Below are positions 3,535 to 47,449 of a DNA stretch of 64,000 nt, one piece after another. Within the stretch, counting starts at the first letter, position 1; each line of letters opens with the position of its first letter. The translations under genes and the position numbers were made by a program. The notes under the pieces are model-generated. The model saw only the letters and a program-made list of their open reading frames with translations, was not told where the DNA came from and did no database searches. Source of the stretch: Vicinamibacterales bacterium (lineage in GTDB: Bacteria; Acidobacteriota; Vicinamibacteria; Vicinamibacterales; SCN-69-37); contig JBBQDM010000001.1 of the NCBI GenBank assembly GCA_038319675.1, forward strand, positions 166,457 to 230,456. Reading direction: 5' to 3'.

Positions 3535-5538
3535 TCAGCGCACCCTGAATAAACGATCCGTGCCATCGCGCAGCAACTCGACGGCGCCGTGCGCGAGGAG
3601 CCAGTCGGCGACGATGGAGCGCTGGCTCGGGATGAAGCCGTCTTCATGGACAAGCACGTGCGTGGCACGGGCGCTGACCATGGCCCGCCACGCGGCGTCC
3701 GGGTCTGAATCGATCATTGACCAGACGAGCGCACGAACGCGCTGACTCTGTGGAAAAAACCCGGAGTACCCGTTCACCAACAGCCGACGGTGATACCCCG
3801 CGTAGAACATGGCCTGCAAATCCCACGCGGGTGCACCGAACGGAAACTCCACGAGCACCACGGGATCCGGTTCGTCGCGAATCACCTTGTAGATGGGCGG
3901 AAGGGCCGCGCCCGTGTGCAGGTCACGCGGAGTGGCCTGATACCCGTCAGCCGCGAGGCGCACGTTCGTCTGGAACGGGCCCGCCCAGAACTCTGCCAGG
4001 ATCAAGACGCCGGCGACTATCACTACGCCTGCCGCGAGGCGAGGTTGCCACCGGACCAGTGCCGCCACCCCGAAACCGGCGAGGCAGGCAAGGAACAGCG
4101 CCACCAGCATGAAAAATCTCGCCGGCACCCGGACGCCGTCAAACCCAGGCACGTACGCCACCAACCACGCGTACGGTCCGGTACCAATGACATGACCGGC
4201 CACGGTGATCTGCGGCCCAAGCGCGAGGAGGGAAGCCAGCACCGTCGCCATCGCGAAAAAACCCACCAGCGACCCGGAGACATCGTGCAGGTACCGACGG
4301 ACGCCTGCCGAGACGACAACCAACAACATCGTCAGCACCAGCAGGCCCACCAGCACCGCATTTGCCTGTCGGTGCACGGCCCAGACGCCATCCACCGGCA
4401 ACGGGAGTCCCCCGGTCACCAGGAAGATCAGCGCAGCGATCAGGCTGATGGACCACCATGCGGCGATCATGCCCACAAGGACATGTTGCCAGGGTCGGGT
4501 GAAAGGGCGGTGAGCGTCATGTGTCTGCCGACGTCGACGCGTCAGCCCTACAGCCACACCCAGCGCCGCAAGGATCACAATCGTGAGCCCCGGAAAGCCC
4601 TCGCCTTCGGCCTTCTGGTATCCCGGCAGCCGCTCCGCCCAGAACCACGACGCCGGAGAGGGGGTGACCAACGCATGGGTGTCGGCCGAGAACAGCGCGA
4701 TCTCTTCCGCCGTGCGCACCCCGACGTCAGTGTGGGCGCGCACATCGAAGTACGGAGCCAGAAACGGATACGTCGCTGCAAGTGCAATCGCGCCGGTGAC
4801 CATCCACGTGCGCCAGAGTGTCCACTCGCGCAACCGACCACGTGACGCCATTTCGTAGATCACATACAGCCCGACGAACGGCGCAAAAAACAGCAGGTAG
4901 TAGCCGCAGGAGAGATTCTGGAGGACCAGTGCCACCGTGCCGCCGATGAGCGGGCGCATGCGCCCCGTCTCGAAATAGCGTCGGTAGCCGTAGAGCACAA
5001 ACGGCATCCACTGCGCCGACAGCACCTGCAGATGCGAAAACTGTGAAAGACGATACGGCGCAAACGCAAACGCTAGGCCGGCCACCACACCGGCTGCCGT
5101 GCTGCCCGTCAACTCACGCACCAGCAGAAATGCACCCAGACCCGACAACACAAACGTCGAAAGAAACAGCAGGTTGTAGGCGAGCACAACGTTGTCTGTG
5201 GCCGCCAGCACCGGCAGTGCCTGGAGCATTTGCGGCACCATGTGTTCAGAAAAGGCGACCGTCAGTCGTTCGGGATAAAAGATGTTGCCGTGCCAGAAGC
5301 GGTTGAGCGCCGACAGGTCGCCGGAAAGGAATGCCAACACCTGCCCACCCGTCCACAGCAAGACCCAGCTGTTGAAGGCCGGGTCGCCCAGGTCCCACGC
5401 GATTTCGACGTCGATGACCGTGACCAATGGCCACGTGACAGCGATCGCCACCAGCGCATAAAACGCGACGACGAGGAGGTTATGGGCGCGGCGACCAGCG
5501 GGCATACCGGAGGATCGTCCACGCGGCCTGCACGGCAT
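3535..5538 (-). CDS. Polytopic membrane protein, putative GT-C-type glycosyltransferase (ArnT/PMT-like); start uncertain (5538 or 5505)
   Basis: 667-aa ORF with many hydrophobic helices followed by a soluble C-terminal region. It overlaps the 3' end of the upstream GT2 gene. The family call is by architecture and context only. Confidence 0.5.
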   Translation of the reverse strand: MPCRPRGRSSGMPAGRRAHNLLVVAFYALVAIAVTWPLVTVIDVEIAWDLGDPAFNSWVLLWTGGQVLAFLSGDLSALNRFWHGNIFYPERLTVAFSEHMVPQMLQALPVLAATDNVVLAYNLLFLSTFVLSGLGAFLLVRELTGSTAAGVVAGLAFAFAPYRLSQFSHLQVLSAQWMPFVLYGYRRYFETGRMRPLIGGTVALVLQNLSCGYYLLFFAPFVGLYVIYEMASRGRLREWTLWRTWMVTGAIALAATYPFLAPYFDVRAHTDVGVRTAEEIALFSADTHALVTPSPASWFWAERLPGYQKAEGEGFPGLTIVILAALGVAVGLTRRRRQTHDAHRPFTRPWQHVLVGMIAAWWSISLIAALIFLVTGGLPLPVDGVWAVHRQANAVLVGLLVLTMLLVVVSAGVRRYLHDVSGSLVGFFAMATVLASLLALGPQITVAGHVIGTGPYAWLVAYVPGFDGVRVPARFFMLVALFLACLAGFGVAALVRWQPRLAAGVVIVAGVLILAEFWAGPFQTNVRLAADGYQATPRDLHTGAALPPIYKVIRDEPDPVVLVEFPFGAPAWDLQAMFYAGYHRRLLVNGYSGFFPQSQRVRALVWSMIDSDPDAAWRAMVSARATHVLVHEDGFIPSQRSIVADWLLAHGAVELLRDGTDRLFRVR

Positions 5539-39023: not shown

Positions 39024-40145
39024 CTATACCGTGACCCATCGACGACTCTTGGCCGCCCGCTCGATCGCGTGCAGCACGCGCTGGTTCGCGACGCCGTCGA
39101 CAAAGTTCGGCGTCGGGATCGTGTGCGCCGCAATGGCTTCGACCAGGTCGTACACCGTGTGCACAAACGTGTGTTCGTAGCCGAGGATGTGGCCGGGCGG
39201 CCACCACTTGCCCACAAACGGATGTGTGGGTTCGGTGACCATGATCGTGCGGAAGCCACGCAGGTGCGGCGGGTCGTTCTCGAAGTAGACCTCGAGTTCA
39301 TTAAGCCGTTCGAGGTTGAAGGCAATGCTGCCGAGTCGGCCGTTGATCTCGAAGCGGTTGTAGTTTTTTCGGCCAGGCGCCATGCGCGTCGCTTCGATGG
39401 TGCCGACCGCACCGTTCGCGAAGTGGACAAGCGCTATGGCGGCATCATCAACCGTGACTGTACGTTTGGTGCGCGGTTTACCTGCTTCAGAACGCACCGG
39501 CACAAATGTCGTGAGGTCGGCTGTCACCTCGGTGATCTCACCCACAAGGAACCGTGCGAGATCGATGGAGTGTGACGCAATATCCCCCAGCGCGCCGGAG
39601 CCGGCCTTGGTACGATCCAGGCGCCAGTTGAACGGGGCGGCCGGGTCTGACATCCAATCCTGCAGGTAGGTGCCGCGGTAGTGTCGAATCTCGCCGAGTT
39701 GGCCGGCCGCGATGATCTGTCTCGCGAGCTGCACAGCGGGGGCGCGGCGATAGTTGTGGCAGATCATGTGCGCCACGCCGGCCTTCTCAACGGCGGCGAG
39801 CATGCGCTCGGCATCCTTGAGTGAGTTGGCGAGTGGCTTCTCGCAGAACACGTGTTTGCCGGCCTTTGCCGCGGCGATGGCGATGTCAGCGTGACTGTCG
39901 CCTGGCGTACACACGTCCACCAGTTCGATGTCCTTGCGCCGGATGACGTCTTTCCAGTCGGTGGCGGCCTCTTCCCACCCGAGTGCCTGGCGCGCCGCCT
40001 CAACACCGCGTGGGTCGCGGCCGCAGATCACCTTCATGCGTGGAGCACGGGTCGGTGAAAAAAACGGGCCCACCTGGCGGTACGCATTCGAATGGGCTCG
40101 GCCCATGAAGGCGTAGCCGATCAGAGCGACGTTGATGTCACTCAC
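39024..40145 (-). CDS. Gfo/Idh/MocA-family oxidoreductase (cytoplasmic, no signal)
   Basis: 373 aa. [22 protein letters not shown] Rossmann N-terminus. GTG start overlaps the stop of the cytochrome c gene (GTGA). Confidence 0.85.
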
Positions 40146-40564
40146 TGTTTCTCCGGTTTGAGCCGCGTATCAAACGCCCGCACGTGTTTGGCGAGAGCCG
40201 TAATCTGCTCCGGCTTCAGCTTGCCCTTGAATGGCATCATCGGCGTACCTTTCACGCCCTCGGCAATGACCTTTGCCATCTGCACCGATGCCGTGCCGTG
40301 TTTCCAGTCGCGCCCCACAAAGGCCATTTCCGGCAACGGGGCCTTGCCGTTGGCGCCATGGCACACCTGGCAGTGCAACTTGTAGAGCGCGGCGGCATCA
40401 ATCTTCGGGGCCTGGGCACGGTGGATGGGGAGGTGAGGAGATGAGGAGATGAGGAGATGAGGAATGGGAATTGTGGTTGGCGCTGCTGCGCGCAGGGTCA
40501 TGGCCCCCGCCAGCGCGACAATTCCGAGACCTGTCACTACCATCCTGAAAACCACTGTAGACAT
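40142..40564 (-). CDS. Membrane-anchored/secreted mono-haem c-type cytochrome
   Basis: ORF 40142..40933 trimmed to [21 protein letters not shown] because the remainder is antisense to the giant gene. Haem motif CQVCH. Distal Met in GTPMMPF. Confidence 0.75.
40427..40466 (-). repeat. 8-nt tandem repeat (3 perfect and 2 degenerate copies of GAGGAGAT) inside the cytochrome c linker
   Basis: Perfect copies are at 40435-40458. On the coding strand this reads CCTCATCT x3 and encodes [11 protein letters not shown]. Confidence 0.8.
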
Positions 40565-40681
40565 TGAACCTATTGTGACATCCCCGGAGCGTAGCCAACC
40601 CGGGACTCCTGTGCTGACCCAATGGACATTAGGCGACTTTAGGTACATACTCTCTTCGCTCTCATTACAGATTGGTACCCT

Positions 40682-43600
40682 ATGATGCAACTCCCCCCGG
40701 TAAGTGTGCAGTCCTCCGCTCGTGTACGCCCATTTGCCAGCCTGGTCGCCCTGTGCGGCGCCCTGTTCCTTAGTGCCGTATGGCCGTCGGCGCAATCTCC
40801 CGATCCGGGGCTGGGTCTGGTCGTTGGGCGGAACGTCAACATGGTGTCCGGGCAGACGCTGCCCGGTGGCGATCCCTACCTGCAGCGGCAGAACGAGCCC
40901 TCGGTGGCGGCCTCGACGCGAAACCCGCTGCACTTGTTGGCCGGGGCCAACGACTACCGGACCGTCGACATCCCTGGGAACTTCGATGATGGCGAGACGG
41001 GGGATGCGTGGCTCGGGGTGTTCAAATCTTTTGACGGTGGTGAGCGGTGGCAGAGCACGCTGTTGCCGGGCTACCCGCAGGACACCTCGCCGCAGGGCAT
41101 GGCATCGCCGCTGAAGGCGTATAGCGCGGGTGCTGACCCCGTGGTGCGTCCGGGCACCAACGGTCTGTTGTATTACGCGGGCCTCGCATTCAACCGCGGC
41201 GAAGGTGGCGCCAGCGCCATTTTTGTCTCGCGGTTTGTCGACAACAACAACAAGGAAAACGGCGACCCGATCGCGTACATCTCCACCTCGGTGGTGGCCA
41301 GTTCCACGGGTGCCGGGTTCCTCGACAAACCGTGGTTGGCCGTGGACGTACCACGCGCCGGGGCGACGGTGTGCCGCATCACGACCGAGGCGCCCACGCG
41401 TCAGGTCTCGGCCGCCGCACCATCATCCCCATCGACGGGTAAGGGGGCCAGCGGCGCGGCGGTGTCTGCAGCGGCCGGCACCATTAAGGAGACCCGCACG
41501 ACGAAGGGCACCCCCACGGTATTGCCGACACCCGGGATCGCGAAGCAGACCTCCATCACCCAGCAGGTGCTGGCCGGCGCGATGTATGTGGCCTACGCCC
41601 AGATCACCACCACGCACCTGGCGACGGGCGAGACCGACATCGAATCCCGGATTATGTTTTCGCGCTCGGATGACTGCGGCGTGACCTGGACGACGCCCGT
41701 GCGCATCAGCGACCCGTCGCACAAGGTGAATCAGGGTGCCACGATCGCCGTCGACCCTGCCACGGGTGTGGTGCATGTGGCGTGGCGGCAGTTCGGCCTC
41801 GATGACGCGTCCCCCGACGCGATCATGACCGTGGTCCCCACGGTGACGGCTGTGACGTCCGGACCCGGAAGGAATGCCCGGTCCACGCCCACCCAGCGAA
41901 AGCCCACAAAAGTGCACGAATTCAAGGCCGGTCCGAAGGCCGACGCGATTCGGCCCAAGCTCCAGCGCGCGCATCGGCACGGGGACGTGAACGAACTGGT
42001 GTCGATTCGCCCGTTTGACTCGGGCACGACGGAAGATCGCTTCCGCACCAACGCGTATCCCACCATCGCGATCGACGATGAGAGCCGCGTGTATCTGGCG
42101 TGGACAGAGCGGGGATTTGGTGGCGCCAGGTCTGATCCACTCATTGGTGACGCCCGCATCGTGCTGACGACGTCTCGTCAAGGTGGCTTCTGGACGACAC
42201 CACGCGCCGTGGATTCCCAGCCTGACGGCACGGATTTGCCCGGTCACCAGATGATGCCGTCGATGTCGTATTCGGGCGGTCGGTTGCTGCTTGTGTACTA
42301 CGACCTTCGTGAGGACGTCTCGCGCGTCTTCGGGCCGTTTGTGTCTGAGCGGGATGCGATCTCGCAGGGCCGGCGTCACACGATCGACGTGCGTGCCGTG
42401 CAGGCCACCAAGGGGGATGTGCCGGCGTTTGGTCCGTCCACGATGGTGTCGCAGTATCTGATCGGCAACCTGCGCGGCGCGGGTGGCATCGAGCCCCAGC
42501 AGTTGCAGTTCAACGCACCCAATCTGCCGCTGTTCCAGCTCGGCACGGTGCCCTTCATGGGCGACTATATCGACATCGCCCCGGCGCCGGCGTTTGTTCA
42601 GGACGCGGGCGGCCGGTGGATCCACAACACAGCCACCACGTCCGCGCCGGTGTTCCACGCCGTGTGGACCGACAATCGCGATGTCCGGAAGCCGATCGAT
42701 GGTGATTGGAAAAACTACACGCCGCCTGGCGGCGCCTCCTGCATCGACGGGCAGACGGGCATGCGCAACCAGAACGTGTACTCCGCGCGTCTGACGATGG
42801 GTCTCGTCGCCGGATCTCCTGGCAACTCGAAGCCACTCAGCACAGACACCCCGCGTGGGTTTGTCGTGTTCGCGCAGAATCTGACGTATCAGACAAAGGC
42901 GTTCCGCCTCACGATCGAGAATCAGCCCGTCGGTGGGAACGCGTCGTTCGCCCAGCTCGGCCTGGCCACCCCTGCTCCCCTGCTGCTTTCTGTCGACGTG
43001 AAGGTGGCTCCGCGGTCGATGGTGACCCGGACCGTCTATGCGACGTCCACCAACGCCAAAGATCAGGTGCGTGTCTCGGTGACTGAGGTCGGCGTGGCTG
43101 ACTTCCTCCCCATCGACGGGGGACTCGCGACAACGGTGATCCTCAATCCGGATATTTCAAACCCGGATATCTCGAACCCGGATATCTCGAACCCCGACAT
43201 CTCGAACCCGGATATCTCAAATCCGGATATCTCGAACGCCGAGGTCTACAACCCCGATATTTCCAATCCGGACATTTCCAATCCGGACATTTCGAACCCG
43301 GATATCTCGAACCCGGATATTTCCAATCCCGATATCTCGAACGTGCTCATTGCCAATCCGGATATCTCGAATCCTGACATTTCGAACCCGGATATCTCGA
43401 ATCCTGATATCTCCAACCCGGATATCTCGAATCCAGACATCTCCAACCCCGACATTTCGAACGGGTCCCTGACTGATGTGACGTGGACGATCCGGAACGG
43501 CGGCAACACGACCGCCGCGTTCAACGTGGACCTCTTTATCGCGAATCAGGCGGCCGCAGCTGGCGGTATCAAGACGCAACTGGTCGTGCACAAGACCTAC

Positions 43601-46600
43601 AAGACGCCGGTCTCCGACGGGTGTGTGCTGAAGACCGAGGCGCACACGGTGCTCGTGGCCAACGTGCTGAATCCCACGTTCAAGACGGTCGGCGACGATA
43701 CGACGTTTGATCCGGCGAACCCCGACATCTCGAACACGACGTTGTGGCTCGAACCCGGCGGCGAAGGGAAGATCACGCTGCGCATCGTGGACCCGGATCC
43801 AACCGATGCCTTCTCAATCAATCCAGTCACGGACGTGACGCCCGTGGTGCAGTCGCTGGCGGTGAACACCGAGACGCTCGCCGACCCGATGCCCGAACCG
43901 CCGGCCACACCGGCGCCGACTGACCCGCAGCCGGTGCCTGCGACGATGCTCACGTTTGTCGCGCAGCCTGTGGATACGCTGGCGGGCGGGCCAATGGCCC
44001 CGGTTACAGTGAGCGCCTTCGCTGGCCTCAACCCCGCGCCAGGCGTGCAGGTCACCCTCGCGATCGCGATCAATCCATCCGGGGGCAAGCTGTCAGGGAT
44101 CGTCACGACACTCACCGACGCTGCAGGCCTGGCGACGTTTGCCGGCTTGTCGATCGATCGCGATGGGGCCGGCTACCGGCTTTCAGCGTCTGCCAGCGCG
44201 GCCGGCGCGCTGCCGGTGCTGTCGAATGCCTTCGCAGTCGGCGTGGTGGCGCCGCCTCCGCCTCCGCCTCCGCCGGCCACGAACTGGTCTGCGAACGGCG
44301 ACGGCATCGTCGTGCTGACGGACAACGGGGCCGTCGGCGGCACGCCGCGCATGACCTATCAGCGCAACGGCATCCCCAACTTCACCGGCGCATGGACGTT
44401 GTCCACCGTCGCGGCGGCCACCGGACCGGTGCGGCTCGACTGGGAGTGGACCGGGCTGCACTCCTACTGTGCGGCTGGCGTCCAGCTCCAGTCCTTCGTC
44501 AACCGCGCAGGCAATGATGTCTTTGTGGGCCCGCTGCTGCAACTGACTGACAACTGTGTCGGCGCCCGCAACCCAAGCGCTGGCTTTGCATTCGCCGGCG
44601 TCACGTCGGTGGCGGTGCAGGCTGGCGACACCTACGGATTCCGGCTGAACGGAAGCCACGGTGATGGCAGCTACATCCTGGAGGGCGCCTTTGGCGCAGT
44701 CGTGAATGGCGCGACGTCGGCGAGTCCGTTTGTCGTGACCAACGCCTCGGACGGAGGTCCGGGTTCCCTGCGTGCGGCGCTGATCGAGGCGAACGTTGCG
44801 GCGGATCTGAACACGATCACCTTCGCCATCCCGGGACCGTGGCTGCACACCATTGCGCCAGCCACCCCACTGCCCGTGATCACGAACCCTGTGATCATCG
44901 ACGGTCTGTCGCAGCCGGGCTCGCTCTCGATGGCGCCGATGGTGAACCTCGATGGCCGGTTCATGCTGAATTTTGTCTCCGACAATAATGACGACCTGCC
45001 GGGAACAAACATCGGCCTGGCCCCTGGCTTTGAAGTGGTTGCGTCGGACGTGACCATTCGCGGTCTCGGCATCAACCGATTCCCGGGACCTGGCGTGTAT
45101 GTGAACAACGGCACGAACAACGTGCGCGTTGAAGACAACGCTATCGGTGCCGGACGTGCCGGTGTGCAGACGTGGCCCGCCAACAACGTTGGTGTCCACT
45201 TGAACTACAGCACCAATCACGTGATTGCGCGCAACGTGATTTCCTCGTCAGAGACATCCGGCATCTTGATCGCCGGTGGGTCGGGCTCGTTGATTACGGG
45301 AAACCGAATCGGCACGAGCGCGGACGGGCTGACGGCCCTGCCGAATCTTGACAACGGCATCACGCTGTTCGACGGTGCGACGGCAACGATCATCGACGGC
45401 AACCTGATCTCCGGCAACGGTACGGTCGGTGGCGCGAACGGCTTTGGCATCGACATCCAGCAGTCGGGTCTGCTGGCCGAGGTGACGGGCACGCTGATTC
45501 AAGGCAACACGATCGGCCTTGATGCTGCGGGGAACGTTCTGCGGCGGAGCGCGACCGATATCATCGGCCCCGCAAGTCAGGCGAATGAAAATCTCGGCCC
45601 GCTTGCGCGTGGTAATACCGGTGGCGGCATTCGACTCAACCGTGCGTCAGGCACGGTGATTGGTGGCGTGGCGGGATCGCCGAACACGATTTCTGGCAAC
45701 GGCGGCTATGGAATTGTGATCGTCGGCGCGCAGGCAGGAGCGGCGCCCCGCATCGTCGGTAACTACATCGGCACCGGTCCCACCGGAGCGGGAATCGCGG
45801 CCAATGTCGGGCGCGGGATCAGCGTGCAGGGGGCGGCCGCTGTCATCGGCGCCCCTGGAGTCGAGAACCGCAACATCATCTCCGGGAACCTCGGTGATGG
45901 CATCTTCTCGAACGGCAACACGGTGATCGAGAACAACTTTATCGGGACCGACAGCACCGGCACGATTGCACAGGGGAACGCGCGACTCGATGACTTCGGC
46001 CCAACGCTGACACTTGGCTGCTGTCATGTCGGCGTGTTTGTCACCGCGCCGAACAACGTCGTTCGCAACAACCTGGTGTCAGGGCAGGTGCGCGGGGGCG
46101 GTATCCGGAGTGGTGGCGCGCTCGGTGCCATCGCGAATCTGATTGAGAACAACAAGGTCGGGACCGACGTGACCGGCACCTTGCCGCTGCCCAATGGCGG
46201 TGGGATTGGCCTCTACGGGGATCGATCCGGAACTTGGGTGCGCGGCAACCTCATTGCCTTTAATCCCAATGGGGGAATTGGCATGTTCGAGGGCACGCAG
46301 GGTGCGCTGATCGGCGGTCTCGCTCCCGGGGACGGCAATACCATCGTCAACAACGGAGACGGTGTGCAGGTTGGCTACAACGCCGGACAACTGGCTGATC
46401 TGGGCAACCGAATCTGGTCGAACTCGATTTACAACAACCTGGGGCTTGGCATCGATCTGTCGAGGAACAGCGTGACCGTCAATGACGCCAATGACGGAGA
46501 TGTTGGGCCTAACGGGCAACAGAACTTCCCCGTGCTGAGCAATGTCACGAACAACGGTGTGGTCACCACCGTGGACTACCTGCTGGACAGCCAGCAGATC

Positions 46601-47445
46601 AACGCGAATCACACGATCCAGATTTTCGCGAGCGCGTCCTGCGATGCCAGTGGCTTTGGTGAGGGTGAACGATTGGTCGGGTCATTCATTCAGCAGAGCA
46701 ACGGCTCGGGCGACATGGTGGTCGTCGGAGCCGCACTCACCGAGATGGTGCCCGCAGGGCAGTTCCTGACCGCGACGGCGACCGACGGCAACGGCAATAC
46801 GTCGGAGTTCTCGCAGTGTGTGCAGGTCCAGGCCGGCGTCACGATTACGTCGGCATCCCCGGCGAACGGGGCACCGAACGAAGGCTTCATGGTGTTTCGC
46901 GGCGCGAACCTGCCAGCCGGCGTTGGCGATGTGGTCGCGGAGGTGTCCAACGGGGTCACGACGATGAACGGCTTCTGGTTCGCCAGTCCGTCGTCGCCGA
47001 CCGCAGGGTATGTGCGGTTACCCGGCATGCCGCTCGGGGCCGCCACCGTCCGGTTGCGCAACAACGCGGGCACCATCGTGTCGAACGCATTTCCAATCAC
47101 GATCACGGCCGTGCCTGGCACGCCGGTGATCACGGCGATTCGAGACGGCAACATGAACGTCGTGGCTACGCCGGTCCCGGCTGGCACTACGATCTACGTC
47201 GTGGCTGACGGTATCGACACTTTAGGAGCGGTGGTGCGCTTCACGCAGGGCGCCAATACGTGGGATGTCACTGGTATTGCAACGTCCAGCGCCGCCATCG
47301 GGCTGGCACTGGAAGTGAACCTGCCCGGTGTCGCCTCAGCCGGACCGATTGATGTGAGCATCCGCCAGGGCGCGAGTAACTTCAGTGCCACGGTGACGAT
47401 TCAAGTGGCGGCAGCGCCGACGGTCTCCGGTCCGACGGGTACTCG

Positions 47446-47449
<4 letters not shown>
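40682..47449 (+). CDS. Giant secreted multidomain protein: BNR/sialidase-like propeller, PDISN pentapeptide array, Ig-like domain, CSLREA-type parallel beta-helix, IPT/TIG-like C-terminus
   Basis: 2255 aa. Signal peptide ending PSAQS. Asp-box motifs SFDGGERW (41027-41050) and SDDCGVTW (41666-41689). NPDIS array. P8 linker (about 44254-44277). GGPGSLRAALIEAN then many NxxIxGN beta-helix turns. TATATDGNGNTSEFS. Two C-terminal beta-sandwich modules. Confidence 0.85.
43145..43459 (+). repeat. 21 in-frame 15-nt units; 19 encode NPDIS, plus NAEVY (unit 7) and NVLIA (unit 14)
   Basis: Read directly. The units differ only at synonymous third positions (aat/aac, ccg/ccc/cct/cca, gat/gac, att/atc, tca/tcg/tcc). 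An orphan copy lies at 43718-43732. Confidence 0.95.

What the first reader, a model, noticed from the sequence alone, without database searches (positions are those of the whole stretch)
43145..43459. Array of 21 pentapeptide units (19 identical NPDIS, register PDISN) kept identical at protein level while the DNA has diverged synonymously
Seen directly:
- There are 21 consecutive in-frame 15-nt units, and 19 translate to exactly NPDIS.
- Every nucleotide difference among those 19 is a synonymous third-position change (Asn aat/aac, Pro ccg/ccc/cct/cca, Asp gat/gac, Ile att/atc, Ser tca/tcg/tcc).
- The array is therefore not a fresh slippage product. The peptide appears to be under strong purifying selection.
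- Two variant units (NAEVY, NVLIA) occur at units 7 and 14, giving a 7-unit super-period.
- One orphan NPDIS lies 86 codons downstream (43718-43732).

Read in the register P-D-I-S-N, the unit matches the pentapeptide-repeat consensus A(D/N)(L/F)XX. The variants AEVYN and VLIAN keep the hydrophobic centre. However, Pro at position i-2 is something I do not know from characterised pentapeptide-repeat proteins.

Inference: the array forms a roughly 5-coil quadrilateral beta-helix, or another rigid solenoid, used as a spacer or binding face in a giant surface protein. It may be an undescribed repeat subclass.
Basis: partly seen in the sequence, partly recalled or inferred. Interest (0 to 1): 0.8.

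Follow-up and report, generated by a model that had tools for sequence, protein, structure and literature searches.

The report
Proline-type pentapeptide repeat in acidobacterial giant protein
A run of 21 five-residue units (19 exact NPDIS) is a real, strongly conserved part of a large family of secreted Acidobacteria proteins; it looks like a known repeat type (pentapeptide repeat) with proline replacing the usual alanine, but its 3D shape could not be confirmed.

Summary
Window 43145-43459 carries 21 in-frame 15-nt units: 19 NPDIS, plus NAEVY (unit 7) and NVLIA (unit 14). All DNA differences among the 19 are synonymous.

The array is aa 822-926 of a 2255-aa secreted protein. It lies between two beta-sandwich domains, downstream of a sialidase-like propeller.

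It is not an artefact. The same array (mode 21 units, same landmark units) occurs in 78 of 79 related loci across Acidobacteriota. The family has about 480-2000 clusters at 50% identity.

The unit profile is N(99%)-P(86%; otherwise A/V/I/T, or S/G in other members)-D-I/V-x. In the register PDISN this is the pentapeptide-repeat consensus with Pro at i-2.
- The native array hits no Pfam pentapeptide model.
- An in-silico P->A copy scores 73 bits on PF00805 (cut-off 20.2).
- Natural NADIE homologues also pass.
- phmmer against the PDB finds almost only pentapeptide-repeat proteins.

However, two AlphaFold2 runs give no fold for the array (pLDDT about 30 and 56, no strands). The beta-helix therefore remains unproven.

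Best reading, at about 50%: a non-canonical, acidic pentapeptide-repeat solenoid acting as a rigid connector. Main rival: an extended chain of Asn-Pro-Asp turns.

Unit types switch across whole arrays between clades, with no sign of DNA homogenisation.

The parts
40682..47449 (+). ORF of 2255 aa that carries the array; a member of a large Acidobacteriota protein family
   Evidence: 1749 homologues, the closest at 78-81% identity; the closest loci are Vicinamibacterales MAGs.
40682..40798 (+). Signal-peptide-like N-terminus, about aa 1-39 (MMQLPPVSVQSSARVRPFASLVALCGALFLSAVWPSAQS)
   Evidence: Read from the translation. AF2 gives a helix at aa 19-30 with low pLDDT. Inferred; not tested with a signal-peptide predictor.
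40814..42841 (+). Conserved sialidase-like six-bladed beta-propeller module (aa ~45-720) with insertions. No Pfam family.
   Evidence: AF2 pLDDT is mostly 80-95. Foldseek against the PDB: bacterial sialidases 2ber, 1w8o and NanA, E 1e-10 to 1e-8. Two Asp-box-like motifs. No Pfam hit.
42854..43144 (+). Beta-sandwich domain (aa 725-821). Its last strand, TTVIL, runs straight into the first repeat unit.
   Evidence: AF2 strands 725-733 through 816-821, pLDDT 83-94.
43145..43459 (+). Pentapeptide array: 21 units, 19 of them NPDIS (aa 822-926). It contains 19 Asp + 1 Glu and no Lys or Arg.
43235..43249 (+). Landmark unit 1, NAEVY (non-Pro unit). Across the family it sits at the 16th unit from the C-terminal end.
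   Evidence: 80 of 123 arrays
43340..43354 (+). Landmark unit 2, NVLIA (NV.VA type). Across the family it sits at the 9th unit from the C-terminal end.
   Evidence: 108 of 123 arrays
43460..43474 (+). Closing unit NGSLT (22nd N-initial unit). It leads into the strand DVTWTIRN of the next domain.
   Evidence: NG[SA][LI]T is the commonest closing unit; AF2 strand 929-938
43466..43861 (+). Second beta-sandwich domain (aa 929-1060)
   Evidence: AF2 pLDDT 72-87, eight strands
43718..43732 (+). Orphan NPDIS (aa 1013-1017), in the loop before the strand NTTLWLEPG. Some relatives carry a mini-array of 3-5 units at this site.
   Evidence: conserved in the window's clade; 4 x NPDIA in P0037, P0052 and P0057. 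L059 and L068.
45044..45520 (+). Right-handed parallel beta-helix region (aa 1455-1613) in the variable C-terminal half
   Evidence: Pfam PF13229 46.3 bits and PF05048 33 bits. The profile hits mannuronan C5-epimerases in the PDB.

Best explanation
The array is a non-canonical pentapeptide-repeat domain. Read as P(i-2)-D(i-1)-I(i)-S(i+1)-N(i+2), Pro and Ile would point into the core, Asp and residue 5 would point outward, and Asn would sit at the corner.

On this reading about 21-22 units wind into roughly five coils of a right-handed four-sided beta-helix about 2.5 nm long. That length uses the ~4.8 A rise per coil of solved pentapeptide-repeat proteins, which is my own knowledge.

The helix would be capped directly by the beta-sandwich before it (strand TTVIL) and the one after it (strand NGSLTDVTW). 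It would serve as a rigid, strongly acidic connector between the conserved sialidase-like head and the variable C-terminal modules of a secreted protein.

**Shown:** the repeat, its conservation, its selection regime, its sequence kinship to pentapeptide repeats, and its place in the domain architecture.

**Inferred:** the fold, the inward/outward assignment of residues, and the spacer function.
For: 1. phmmer of the array against all PDB chains hits almost only pentapeptide-repeat proteins: the designed beta1 series (1e-11), Np275/276, Alr5209, Rfr, All3740, TL15 and QnrB1. The only others, all at E > 0.7, are FabZ, a designed repeat protein and apolipoprotein B. The alignments put p under A, d under D/N, i under L and s under S.
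2. Replacing Pro with Ala in silico lifts the array from no hit at E <= 10 to PF00805 73 bits (cut-off 20.2), PF13576 45.7 (27) and PF13599 38.3 (38).
3. Nature has made the same swap. Positionally homologous arrays in relatives are NADIE, with some NPDIE units mixed in, and pass PF00805: P0073 51.6 bits, P0204 35.1, P0211 27.6. Others are NSDIE or NGDIT.
4. Over 2543 units in 123 arrays, position 2 is P in 86% and otherwise A, V, I or T. Position 4 is I 87%, V 11%, L 1%. Position 5 varies freely. The non-Pro landmark units keep small or hydrophobic residues at positions 2 and 4, while position 3 varies. This is the inward/outward alternation of the pentapeptide fold, whose i-2 set is A/C/S/T/V (PMC2964730).
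5. Length is constrained. The mode is 105 aa (55 of 140 arrays), and 88% of lengths are multiples of 5. The landmarks are fixed relative to the C-terminal end. The second landmark and the closing non-Pro unit are 8 units apart, which is two coils.
6. There is no linker sequence at either junction; flanking strands abut the array.
7. Each unit type is uniform within a protein even though synonymous sites are saturated and units are inherited position for position. This fits residues stacked in ladders.
Against: - AlphaFold2 does not predict the fold. With a 56-sequence alignment the flanks reach pLDDT 80-95, but aa 826-928 sit at about 30 with no secondary structure. The array alone gives pLDDT 55.8, pTM 0.12 and no strands.
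- The native array fails all Pfam pentapeptide models. Its NCBIfam pentapeptide hits are far below cut-off (16-25 bits against cut-offs of 125-260).
- In solved pentapeptide-repeat proteins the type II turn is closed by a hydrogen bond from C=O of residue i to N-H of the next i-2 residue. Pro cannot make this bond. Pro introduced at i, i-1 or i+2 abolishes Qnr function (PMC2964730); i-2 was not tested there.
- Asn at position 1 is 99% invariant and never Gly. Canonical repeats vary at i+2 and often have Gly.
- The centre residue is Ile/Val rather than Leu/Phe.
- The 7-unit landmark spacing is not a multiple of 4 units per coil. Single-unit length changes are tolerated.
Confidence: 0.5

Rival explanations
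1. The array is an extended, semi-flexible stalk made of about 21 consecutive Asn-Pro-Asp-x type I beta-turns (Asx-Pro turns), one per unit. This resembles the NPNA turns of the Plasmodium circumsporozoite (NANP)n repeat or an elastin-like turn spiral. It would act as a long acidic tether or entropic spacer rather than a compact solenoid.
For: - Both AlphaFold2 runs give low confidence, no strands and an extended chain (pTM 0.12).
- The unit profile fits type I turn preferences: N 99% at position 1 (the rare substitutes are S/T), P at position 2, and D/N/S/E at position 3. That N-P-D-x is the preferred type I turn sequence is my own knowledge.
- NPNA units of CSP adopt type I turns held by the Asn side chain, in equilibrium with disorder (PMC7057269).
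- The composition (N, P, D, S) is typical of disordered regions.
- Length changes occur in single-unit steps.
Against: - About 20 Ile/Val at position 4 are conserved at 98% and would be exposed to solvent.
- Landmark and variant units use A/V/I/T, S or G at position 2 and V/I at position 4. That is a buried-strand pattern, not a turn pattern.
- Whole clades replace Pro with Ala yet keep everything else.
- There is a sharp length mode and fixed landmark positions across a phylum, unlike ordinary linkers.
- Unit uniformity without DNA homogenisation is hard to explain if units do not touch each other.
Confidence: 0.27
2. The array folds only with a partner that a monomer prediction cannot see. 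The partner could be other chains (for example a trimeric beta-helix or beta-spiral, as in phage fibres) or bound metal ions (a Ca2+-dependent roll, as in RTX repeats). It may form a solenoid with a geometry other than four units per coil.
For: - AlphaFold2 monomer runs fail although the sequence is under extreme constraint.
- One Asp and one Asn per unit, and never Lys or Arg as the majority fifth residue, would suit cation binding.
- There are weak sub-threshold hits to a phage tail tip fibre (7z4b, E 0.0025; PF09327) and to the 15-residue-coil antifreeze protein CfAFP.
Against: - These hits are at noise level.
- Lineages with NPNIT, NPSIT or NPSLQ units lack the acidic residue, so Asp-based metal binding is not universal.
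- Nothing in the flanking domains suggests trimerisation.
- No such arrays were found in viral contigs.
Confidence: 0.13
3. The array is an assembly artefact or lineage-specific low-complexity noise with no function.
For: None was found. The only reason to consider it is that short-read assemblies can mis-build repeats.
Against: - The units differ at synonymous sites, and the longest exact repeat is 26 nt.
- The same array occurs in 78 of 79 independent assemblies from many orders of Acidobacteriota.
- The synonymous pattern is inherited unit for unit in relatives (permutation P = 0.0003 for L001).
- All 36 differences from the consensus are synonymous.
Confidence: 0.01

Closest known systems
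Pentapeptide repeat proteins (Pfam PF00805; Rfr fold, e.g. MfpA, Qnr, Np275/276, Rfr32, designed beta1 series)
   Same: - Strict 5-residue period.
- D at i-1, an aliphatic residue at i, a free i+1, and a polar corner residue at i+2.
- Small or beta-branched residues at i-2 in the non-Pro units.
- phmmer against the PDB finds almost only these proteins, in this register.
- A-type homologues pass PF00805.
   Different: - Pro at i-2 in 86% of units, which removes the turn-closing N-H (PMC2964730) and abolishes every Pfam pentapeptide hit.
- Asn is invariant at i+2.
- Ile/Val replaces Leu/Phe at i.
- The units are near-perfect copies.
- The setting is extracellular and inter-domain, in a multidomain protein, rather than a small cytoplasmic DNA mimic or thylakoid-lumen protein.
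- AlphaFold2 does not predict the fold.
Plasmodium falciparum circumsporozoite protein (NANP)n repeat
   Same: - Tandem short units built on Asn-Pro-Asx.
- Local type I turn potential (PMC7057269).
- Extracellular.
- Low-confidence structure prediction.
   Different: - CSP has a four-residue unit and no conserved hydrophobic residue.
- CSP has no fixed landmarks, and its copy number varies.
- There is no homology; the resemblance is in how it might work only.
RTX nonapeptide repeats (GGxGxDxUx) and other Ca2+-dependent beta-rolls of giant secreted proteins
   Same: An acidic, Asp-plus-hydrophobic repeat in a large secreted bacterial protein. RTX repeats are known to be disordered until a ligand binds.
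   Different: The unit length and motif differ, there is no Gly, and some lineages lack the Asp. Not a member.
Extensin_1 (PF02095), the label precomputed for nearly all family members
   Same: A Pro-containing short-period repeat gives a periodic HMM match (40-47 bits).
   Different: The match is far below the 105-bit cut-off. Extensin is a plant Ser-Hyp4 cell-wall protein. The label is spurious.

Membership tests
Pentapeptide repeat (PF00805 and relatives PF13576, PF13599) | Score at or above the Pfam gathering threshold | tested here: not met
   There is no pentapeptide family at E <= 1 for the whole protein or at E <= 10 for the array. NCBIfam penta_Alr5209 and HetL score 15-25 bits against cut-offs of 125-260.
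Pentapeptide repeat (PF00805 and relatives PF13576, PF13599) | Tandem 5-residue units with consensus [S,T,A,V][D,N][L,F][S,T,R][G]: D/N at i-1 and a hydrophobic residue at i | tested here: met
   D 85% and E 8% at position 3; I/V/L 99.5% at position 4. PDB alignments are in this register.
Pentapeptide repeat (PF00805 and relatives PF13576, PF13599) | Small residue (A/C/S/T/V) at the inward-facing i-2 position | tested here: not met
   Pro occupies it in 19 of 21 units here and in 86% of units across the family. The remaining units and some relatives do use A, V, I, T, S or G. The P->A swap alone restores 73 bits on PF00805.
Pentapeptide repeat (PF00805 and relatives PF13576, PF13599) | Right-handed quadrilateral beta-helix, four units per coil | tested here: inconclusive
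   AlphaFold2 gives pLDDT ~30 with an alignment and 55.8 / pTM 0.12 alone, with no strands. A failed prediction does not establish absence of the fold.
Homology to canonical-looking pentapeptide arrays | Positionally equivalent arrays in orthologous or paralogous proteins that are recognised as PF00805 | tested here: met
   P0073, P0204, P0211 and P0072 carry NADIE arrays between the same flanking motifs.
Turn-repeat stalks of the CSP (NANP)n kind | Isolated N-P-[N/D]-x type I turns in equilibrium with disorder, with no hydrophobic core | not testable with these tools
   The sequence is compatible at positions 1-3. The conserved Ile at position 4 argues against it. NMR or CD is needed.
RTX / Ca2+ beta-roll | Nonapeptide GGxGxDxUx | tested here: not met
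   The sequence shows a 5-residue unit without Gly. There is no RTX family hit.
Extensin_1 (PF02095) | Score at or above 105 bits | tested here: not met
   39.6-47.3 bits
Sialidase-like (GH33-type) propeller, for the N-terminal module only | Six-bladed propeller fold with Asp boxes, and a Pfam BNR/sialidase match | tested here: inconclusive
   The fold matches sialidases at E 1e-10, and there are two Asp-box-like motifs. This protein has no Pfam hit, and relatives give only sub-threshold BNR_2 hits. Catalytic residues were not examined.

The most novel reading that the evidence does not exclude
The (N-P-D-I-x)n array is a solenoid or turn-spiral fold that has not been described structurally and that AlphaFold2 cannot see. 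It would be related in sequence to pentapeptide repeats but built on Asn-Pro corners. Its units would be kept identical by selection for uniform stacked ladders rather than by recombination, so that whole arrays change residue by many parallel point mutations. An example is the 15 in-situ D->E changes between P0079 and P0082.
Probability: 0.22. Interest if true: 0.75.

Novelty: new variant of a known kind. Interest (0 to 1): 0.5.

Why it matters
**A blind spot in family models.** Pentapeptide-repeat proteins are defined by a small residue at i-2. Here a family found across a phylum, with hundreds to thousands of sequence clusters, uses Pro there. Current family models do not recognise it and label it 'Extensin'.

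**A test case for structure.** If the array folds as a four-sided beta-helix, the sequence rules of that fold widen and designers gain a Pro-cornered variant. If it does not, it is a strongly constrained repeat with an unknown structure, and a useful test case for structure predictors.

**A case for repeat evolution.** The peptides are perfectly identical, synonymous sites are saturated, units are inherited position for position, and yet whole arrays switch residue.

**An uncharacterised host family.** The host protein has a sialidase-like head and swappable C-terminal binding modules. The family is uncharacterised and apparently common in soil Acidobacteria.

Tried and rejected
- **Pfam and NCBIfam on the native array.** Only a spurious Extensin_1 hit and sub-threshold hits.
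- **AlphaFold2, twice.** Once on aa 1-1075 with a 56-sequence alignment and once on the array alone. Neither gave a fold for the array, and both jobs are now used. The A-type homologue, which would have been the better second target, could not be run.
- **Array-only search of the 5.8-billion protein set.** It failed because no shared words were found.
- **Viral contigs scan for three NPDI. units.** One AT-rich chance match, unrelated. Phage origin and the tail-fibre link are rejected.
- **Weak hits to phage tail tip fibre and CfAFP**. Treated as periodicity noise.
- **Knotted Solenoid paper (PMC13123833).** Read and set aside; it concerns Brevundimonas and is unrelated.
- **Literature search for NPDIS/PDISN.** Only acronyms were found.
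- **A 105-nt higher-order DNA repeat.** A lag-7 dip appeared when variant units were included. It vanished when only identical-peptide units were compared, so it is rejected.
- **Spread of variant units by duplication or conversion.** Minor and major unit types do not cluster at synonymous sites.
- **AFDB fold search.** The library was not available.
- **Look-up of the contig encoding P0001.** Not on record.
- **Neighbouring genes.** They are a Ser/Thr kinase with TPR repeats, a TonB-type barrel, an oxidoreductase, a cytochrome c and others. They give no functional link.
Full report
**1. The observation**

The sequence at 43145-43459 is 21 in-frame 15-nt units. Nineteen translate to NPDIS, unit 7 to NAEVY and unit 14 to NVLIA. 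A 22nd N-initial unit, NGSLT, follows. Tandem Repeats Finder reports period 15, 21.0 copies, score 287.

The units lie in ORF 40682-47449 (+), 2255 aa, as residues 822-926. The 19 NPDIS units have 14 distinct DNA versions, and only third codon positions vary. The orphan NPDIS at 43718-43732 is there too.

**2. Selection on the array**

- All 36 departures from the consensus unit are synonymous. Only 10 of the 45 possible single-base changes are synonymous, so P is about 3e-24 under neutrality.
- Mean pairwise difference is 2.60 nt per unit. Codons drawn at random from the local codon usage give 2.46 +/- 0.20. Synonymous sites are therefore saturated.
- Ser is always TCN, although 29% of local Ser codons are AGY (P = 0.0017). 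This marks common descent under purifying selection.
- Distance does not depend on how far apart two units lie.
- The longest exact repeat is 26 nt, so mis-assembly is unlikely.

**3. The host protein**

The translation starts with a signal-peptide-like segment (read; not tested with a predictor).

AlphaFold2 on aa 1-1075 with a 56-sequence alignment gives confident structure for three regions (pLDDT mostly 80-95):
- a large beta-propeller (about aa 45-720);
- a beta-sandwich (aa 725-821);
- a second beta-sandwich (aa 929-1060).

Foldseek matches the propeller to bacterial sialidases at E 1e-10. Two Asp-box-like motifs are present, but no Pfam family hits this module.

Downstream come an Ig-like region, a poly-Pro linker and a right-handed beta-helix (PF13229, PF05048). 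The array therefore connects two folded domains. The strand TTVIL runs straight into unit 1, and the closing unit NGSLT runs into the strand DVTWTIRN.

**4. Distribution**

- The whole protein finds 1749 homologues. About the first 1150 residues are conserved. The C-terminal halves differ: beta-helix, C-type lectin, MBG, FG-GAP, cadherin-like, and in more distant members Kelch, He_PIG and PKD.
- A scan of one genome per species finds at least 533 relatives. The 79 loci kept are Acidobacteriota MAGs: Vicinamibacterales closest at 86%, then Terriglobales, Bryobacterales, Thermoanaerobaculia, Aminicenantales and Acidoferrum. One is labelled Cyanobacteriota.
- An exhaustive HMMER search with aa 725-1075 gives 478 clusters (at 50% identity) at E <= 1e-30 and 1991 at E <= 1e-10.
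- The array is present in all 120 best protein hits and in 78 of 79 loci.

**5. Family profile of the unit**

Over 2543 units in 123 in-register arrays:

| Position | Residues |
|---|---|
| 1 | N 99.1% (otherwise S or T; never G) |
| 2 | P 85.7%, A 7.7%, V 3.8%, I 1.0%, T 0.7% |
| 3 | D 85%, E 8% |
| 4 | I 87%, V 11%, L 1% |
| 5 | S, E, A, T, D, Q and others |

- In more distant members whole arrays are NPNIT, NPSIT, NPSLQ, NADIE, NSDIE or NGDIT.
- Array length peaks at 105 aa (55 of 140). The range is 65-146 aa, and 88% of lengths are multiples of five.
- Non-Pro landmark units sit at the 16th (NAEVY type) and 9th (NV.VA type) unit from the C-terminal end, in 80 and 108 of 123 arrays. Counted from the N-terminal end, the commonest positions are units 6 and 13 (96 and 64 occurrences).
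It is not a DNA periodicity.

**6. Is it a pentapeptide repeat?**

By sequence it is one step away.
- phmmer of the array against every PDB chain returns almost only pentapeptide-repeat proteins: the designed beta1 series at 1e-11, then Np275/276, Alr5209, Rfr, All3740, TL15 and QnrB1. The only other hits, all at E > 0.7, are FabZ, a designed repeat protein and apolipoprotein B. The alignments put p on A, d on D/N, i on L and s on S.
- The native array hits no Pfam pentapeptide model even at E <= 10. The same array with Pro changed to Ala scores 73 bits on PF00805 (cut-off 20.2), and also passes PF13576 and PF13599.
- The natural, positionally homologous arrays of P0073 (NADIE with some NPDIE units), P0204 and P0211 pass PF00805 with 51.6, 35.1 and 27.6 bits.
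- When position 2 is not Pro it is A, V, I, T, S or G. The published i-2 set is A/C/S/T/V (PMC2964730).
- The landmark units keep hydrophobic residues at positions 2 and 4 while position 3 varies. This is the expected inward/outward pattern.

**7. The evidence against that fold**

- AlphaFold2 gives pLDDT about 30 and no secondary structure for aa 826-928 in the aligned run, although the neighbouring domains fold well.
- The array alone gives pLDDT 55.8, pTM 0.12 and no strands.
- In solved pentapeptide-repeat proteins the type II turn is closed by a hydrogen bond from C=O of residue i to N-H of the next i-2 residue. Pro cannot donate this bond.
- Pro introduced at i, i-1 or i+2 destroys Qnr function (PMC2964730). 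The i-2 position was not tested there.
- The invariance of Asn, the absence of Gly at the corner and the Ile/Val centre also depart from canonical repeats.

**8. The main rival**

N-P-D-x is, from general knowledge of turn propensities, an ideal type I beta-turn with an Asx cap. NPNA units of the malaria circumsporozoite repeat form such turns in equilibrium with disorder (PMC7057269). A chain of 21 such turns would be an extended acidic stalk, which would explain the AlphaFold2 result.

Several findings count against it:
- the 98% conserved Ile/Val at position 4;
- the hydrophobic landmarks;
- the Pro-to-Ala, Ser or Gly clades;
- the sharp length mode;
- the uniformity of units described in section 9.

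I rate the solenoid at about 0.5, the turn stalk at about 0.27, and a partner-dependent (oligomer or metal) or otherwise novel solenoid at about 0.13. An artefact is excluded.

**9. How the units stay alike**

Within a protein the unit is uniform, but it differs between clades. S<->A and D->E switches recur on a tree of the N-terminal module. This is not recent DNA homogenisation.
- Synonymous distances between identical-peptide units show no lag structure in 61 arrays.
- Major and minor unit types in mixed arrays do not cluster at synonymous sites.
- The window's synonymous pattern is shared unit for unit with relatives: permutation P = 0.0003 for L001, 0.009 for L015, 0.011 for L003 and 0.028 for L004.

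The closest pair with different units is P0079 (NPDIS) and P0082 (NPEIS), 83% identical in the N-terminal module.
- Their arrays are collinear, with 22 units each and the same landmarks.
- The Ser codon class (AGC or TCN) agrees in all eight shared Ser units among units 2-10.
- Where P0079 has GAC x17 and GAT x1, P0082 has GAG x10, GAA x5 and GAC x3.
- This points to about 15 separate in-situ D->E changes rather than the spread of one mutated unit. The positional signal for this pair is only borderline (P = 0.054), so I treat the conclusion as suggestive.

Selection for uniform stacks of side chains would explain the pattern. That leans towards a structure in which units contact each other.

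**10. The orphan unit**

The orphan NPDIS is conserved in the window's clade, in the loop before the strand NTTLWLEPG. In P0037, P0052 and P0057 the same site holds four NPDIA units, the same unit type as their main arrays. L059 and L068 have 3-5 units there.

**11. Function**

The array has 19 Asp and 1 Glu, and no Lys or Arg. No array in either protein sample (the 120 best hits or the 134 further representatives) has Lys or Arg as its majority fifth residue. The likeliest role, by inference only, is a rigid and strongly acidic connector. It would fix the distance and orientation between the conserved head and the rest of a secreted protein. Cation or surface binding is possible. The neighbouring genes give no clue.

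**12. Verdict**

The finding is real, non-random and under strong selection. It is best filed as a new variant (Pro at i-2) of the pentapeptide repeat, and as the hallmark of a large uncharacterised acidobacterial protein family. Membership in PF00805 was tested and is not met. Kinship is supported. The fold is unresolved.

Noticed in passing
window 40814-43144 (aa ~45-821 of the ORF): The conserved N-terminal module has no Pfam family, but it is predicted as a sialidase-like six-bladed propeller plus a beta-sandwich. It heads a family of roughly 480-2000 clusters at 50% identity. The C-terminal halves are swapped between members (beta-helix, C-type lectin, MBG, FG-GAP, cadherin-like, Kelch, He_PIG, PKD).
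   Followed up: partly
L081 (P0082) and L082 (P0079), array units 1-22: Two collinear arrays differ by D->E in 15 of 18 units, with mixed GAG and GAA codons. Ser codon class (AGC or TCN) is conserved by position. This suggests parallel point substitutions across the array rather than homogenisation (positional signal P = 0.054).
   Followed up: partly
window 43145-43459 and the arrays of L001-L079: AAT is over-used for Asn inside the arrays (43% against 26% in the rest of the gene; higher in 66 of 79 loci). GAT and ATT show no consistent shift. This may reflect avoidance of C runs in AAC-CCN. Adjacent identical-peptide units are slightly more different than average (1.05 +/- 0.02).
   Followed up: partly
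P0250 (1308 aa), residues ~979-1308: An unrelated protein with an N-terminal AAA_22 ATPase domain and a long low-complexity region ends in about 66 RPDIE/RPDLE units. This is another Pro-first pentapeptide, and it even scores above the Extensin_1 cut-off.
   Followed up: partly
P0204, P0239, P0242; L036, L040-L042: In some family members every unit has Ala, Ser or Gly in place of Pro (NADIE, NSDIE, NGDIT/NGDLT). The Ala type is recognised by PF00805.
   Followed up: yes
L040 (arrays at 4814 and 10919), L045 (2548 and 7433); L012 and L038 from one MAG: Family members occur as tandem or multiple paralogues in one genome, sometimes with different unit types (NPDFE next to NPDIE in L045).
   Followed up: no
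window 40142-40933 (-) versus 40682 (+): A minus-strand ORF with a cytochrome c domain overlaps the annotated start of the giant ORF by about 250 nt. The start of one of the two is probably further in.
   Followed up: no
window 40424-40463: An 8-nt tandem repeat, GATGAGGA x5 (TRF score 66), lies upstream of the giant ORF, inside the minus-strand ORF.
   Followed up: no
window 44250-44275 (aa ~1190-1198): A run of eight prolines (CCGCCT repeat) forms a linker after the Ig-like region.
   Followed up: no
L054 (JAIEMQ010000005.1): One family member lies in a MAG labelled Cyanobacteriota, while all other loci are Acidobacteriota. This is probably a binning or labelling error, or possibly a transfer.
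   Followed up: no
precomputed Pfam column: Nearly all family members carry a precomputed PF02095 Extensin_1 label, which is a sub-threshold periodic artefact of the array. JGI names some members 'YjbI with pentapeptide repeats'.
   Followed up: yes
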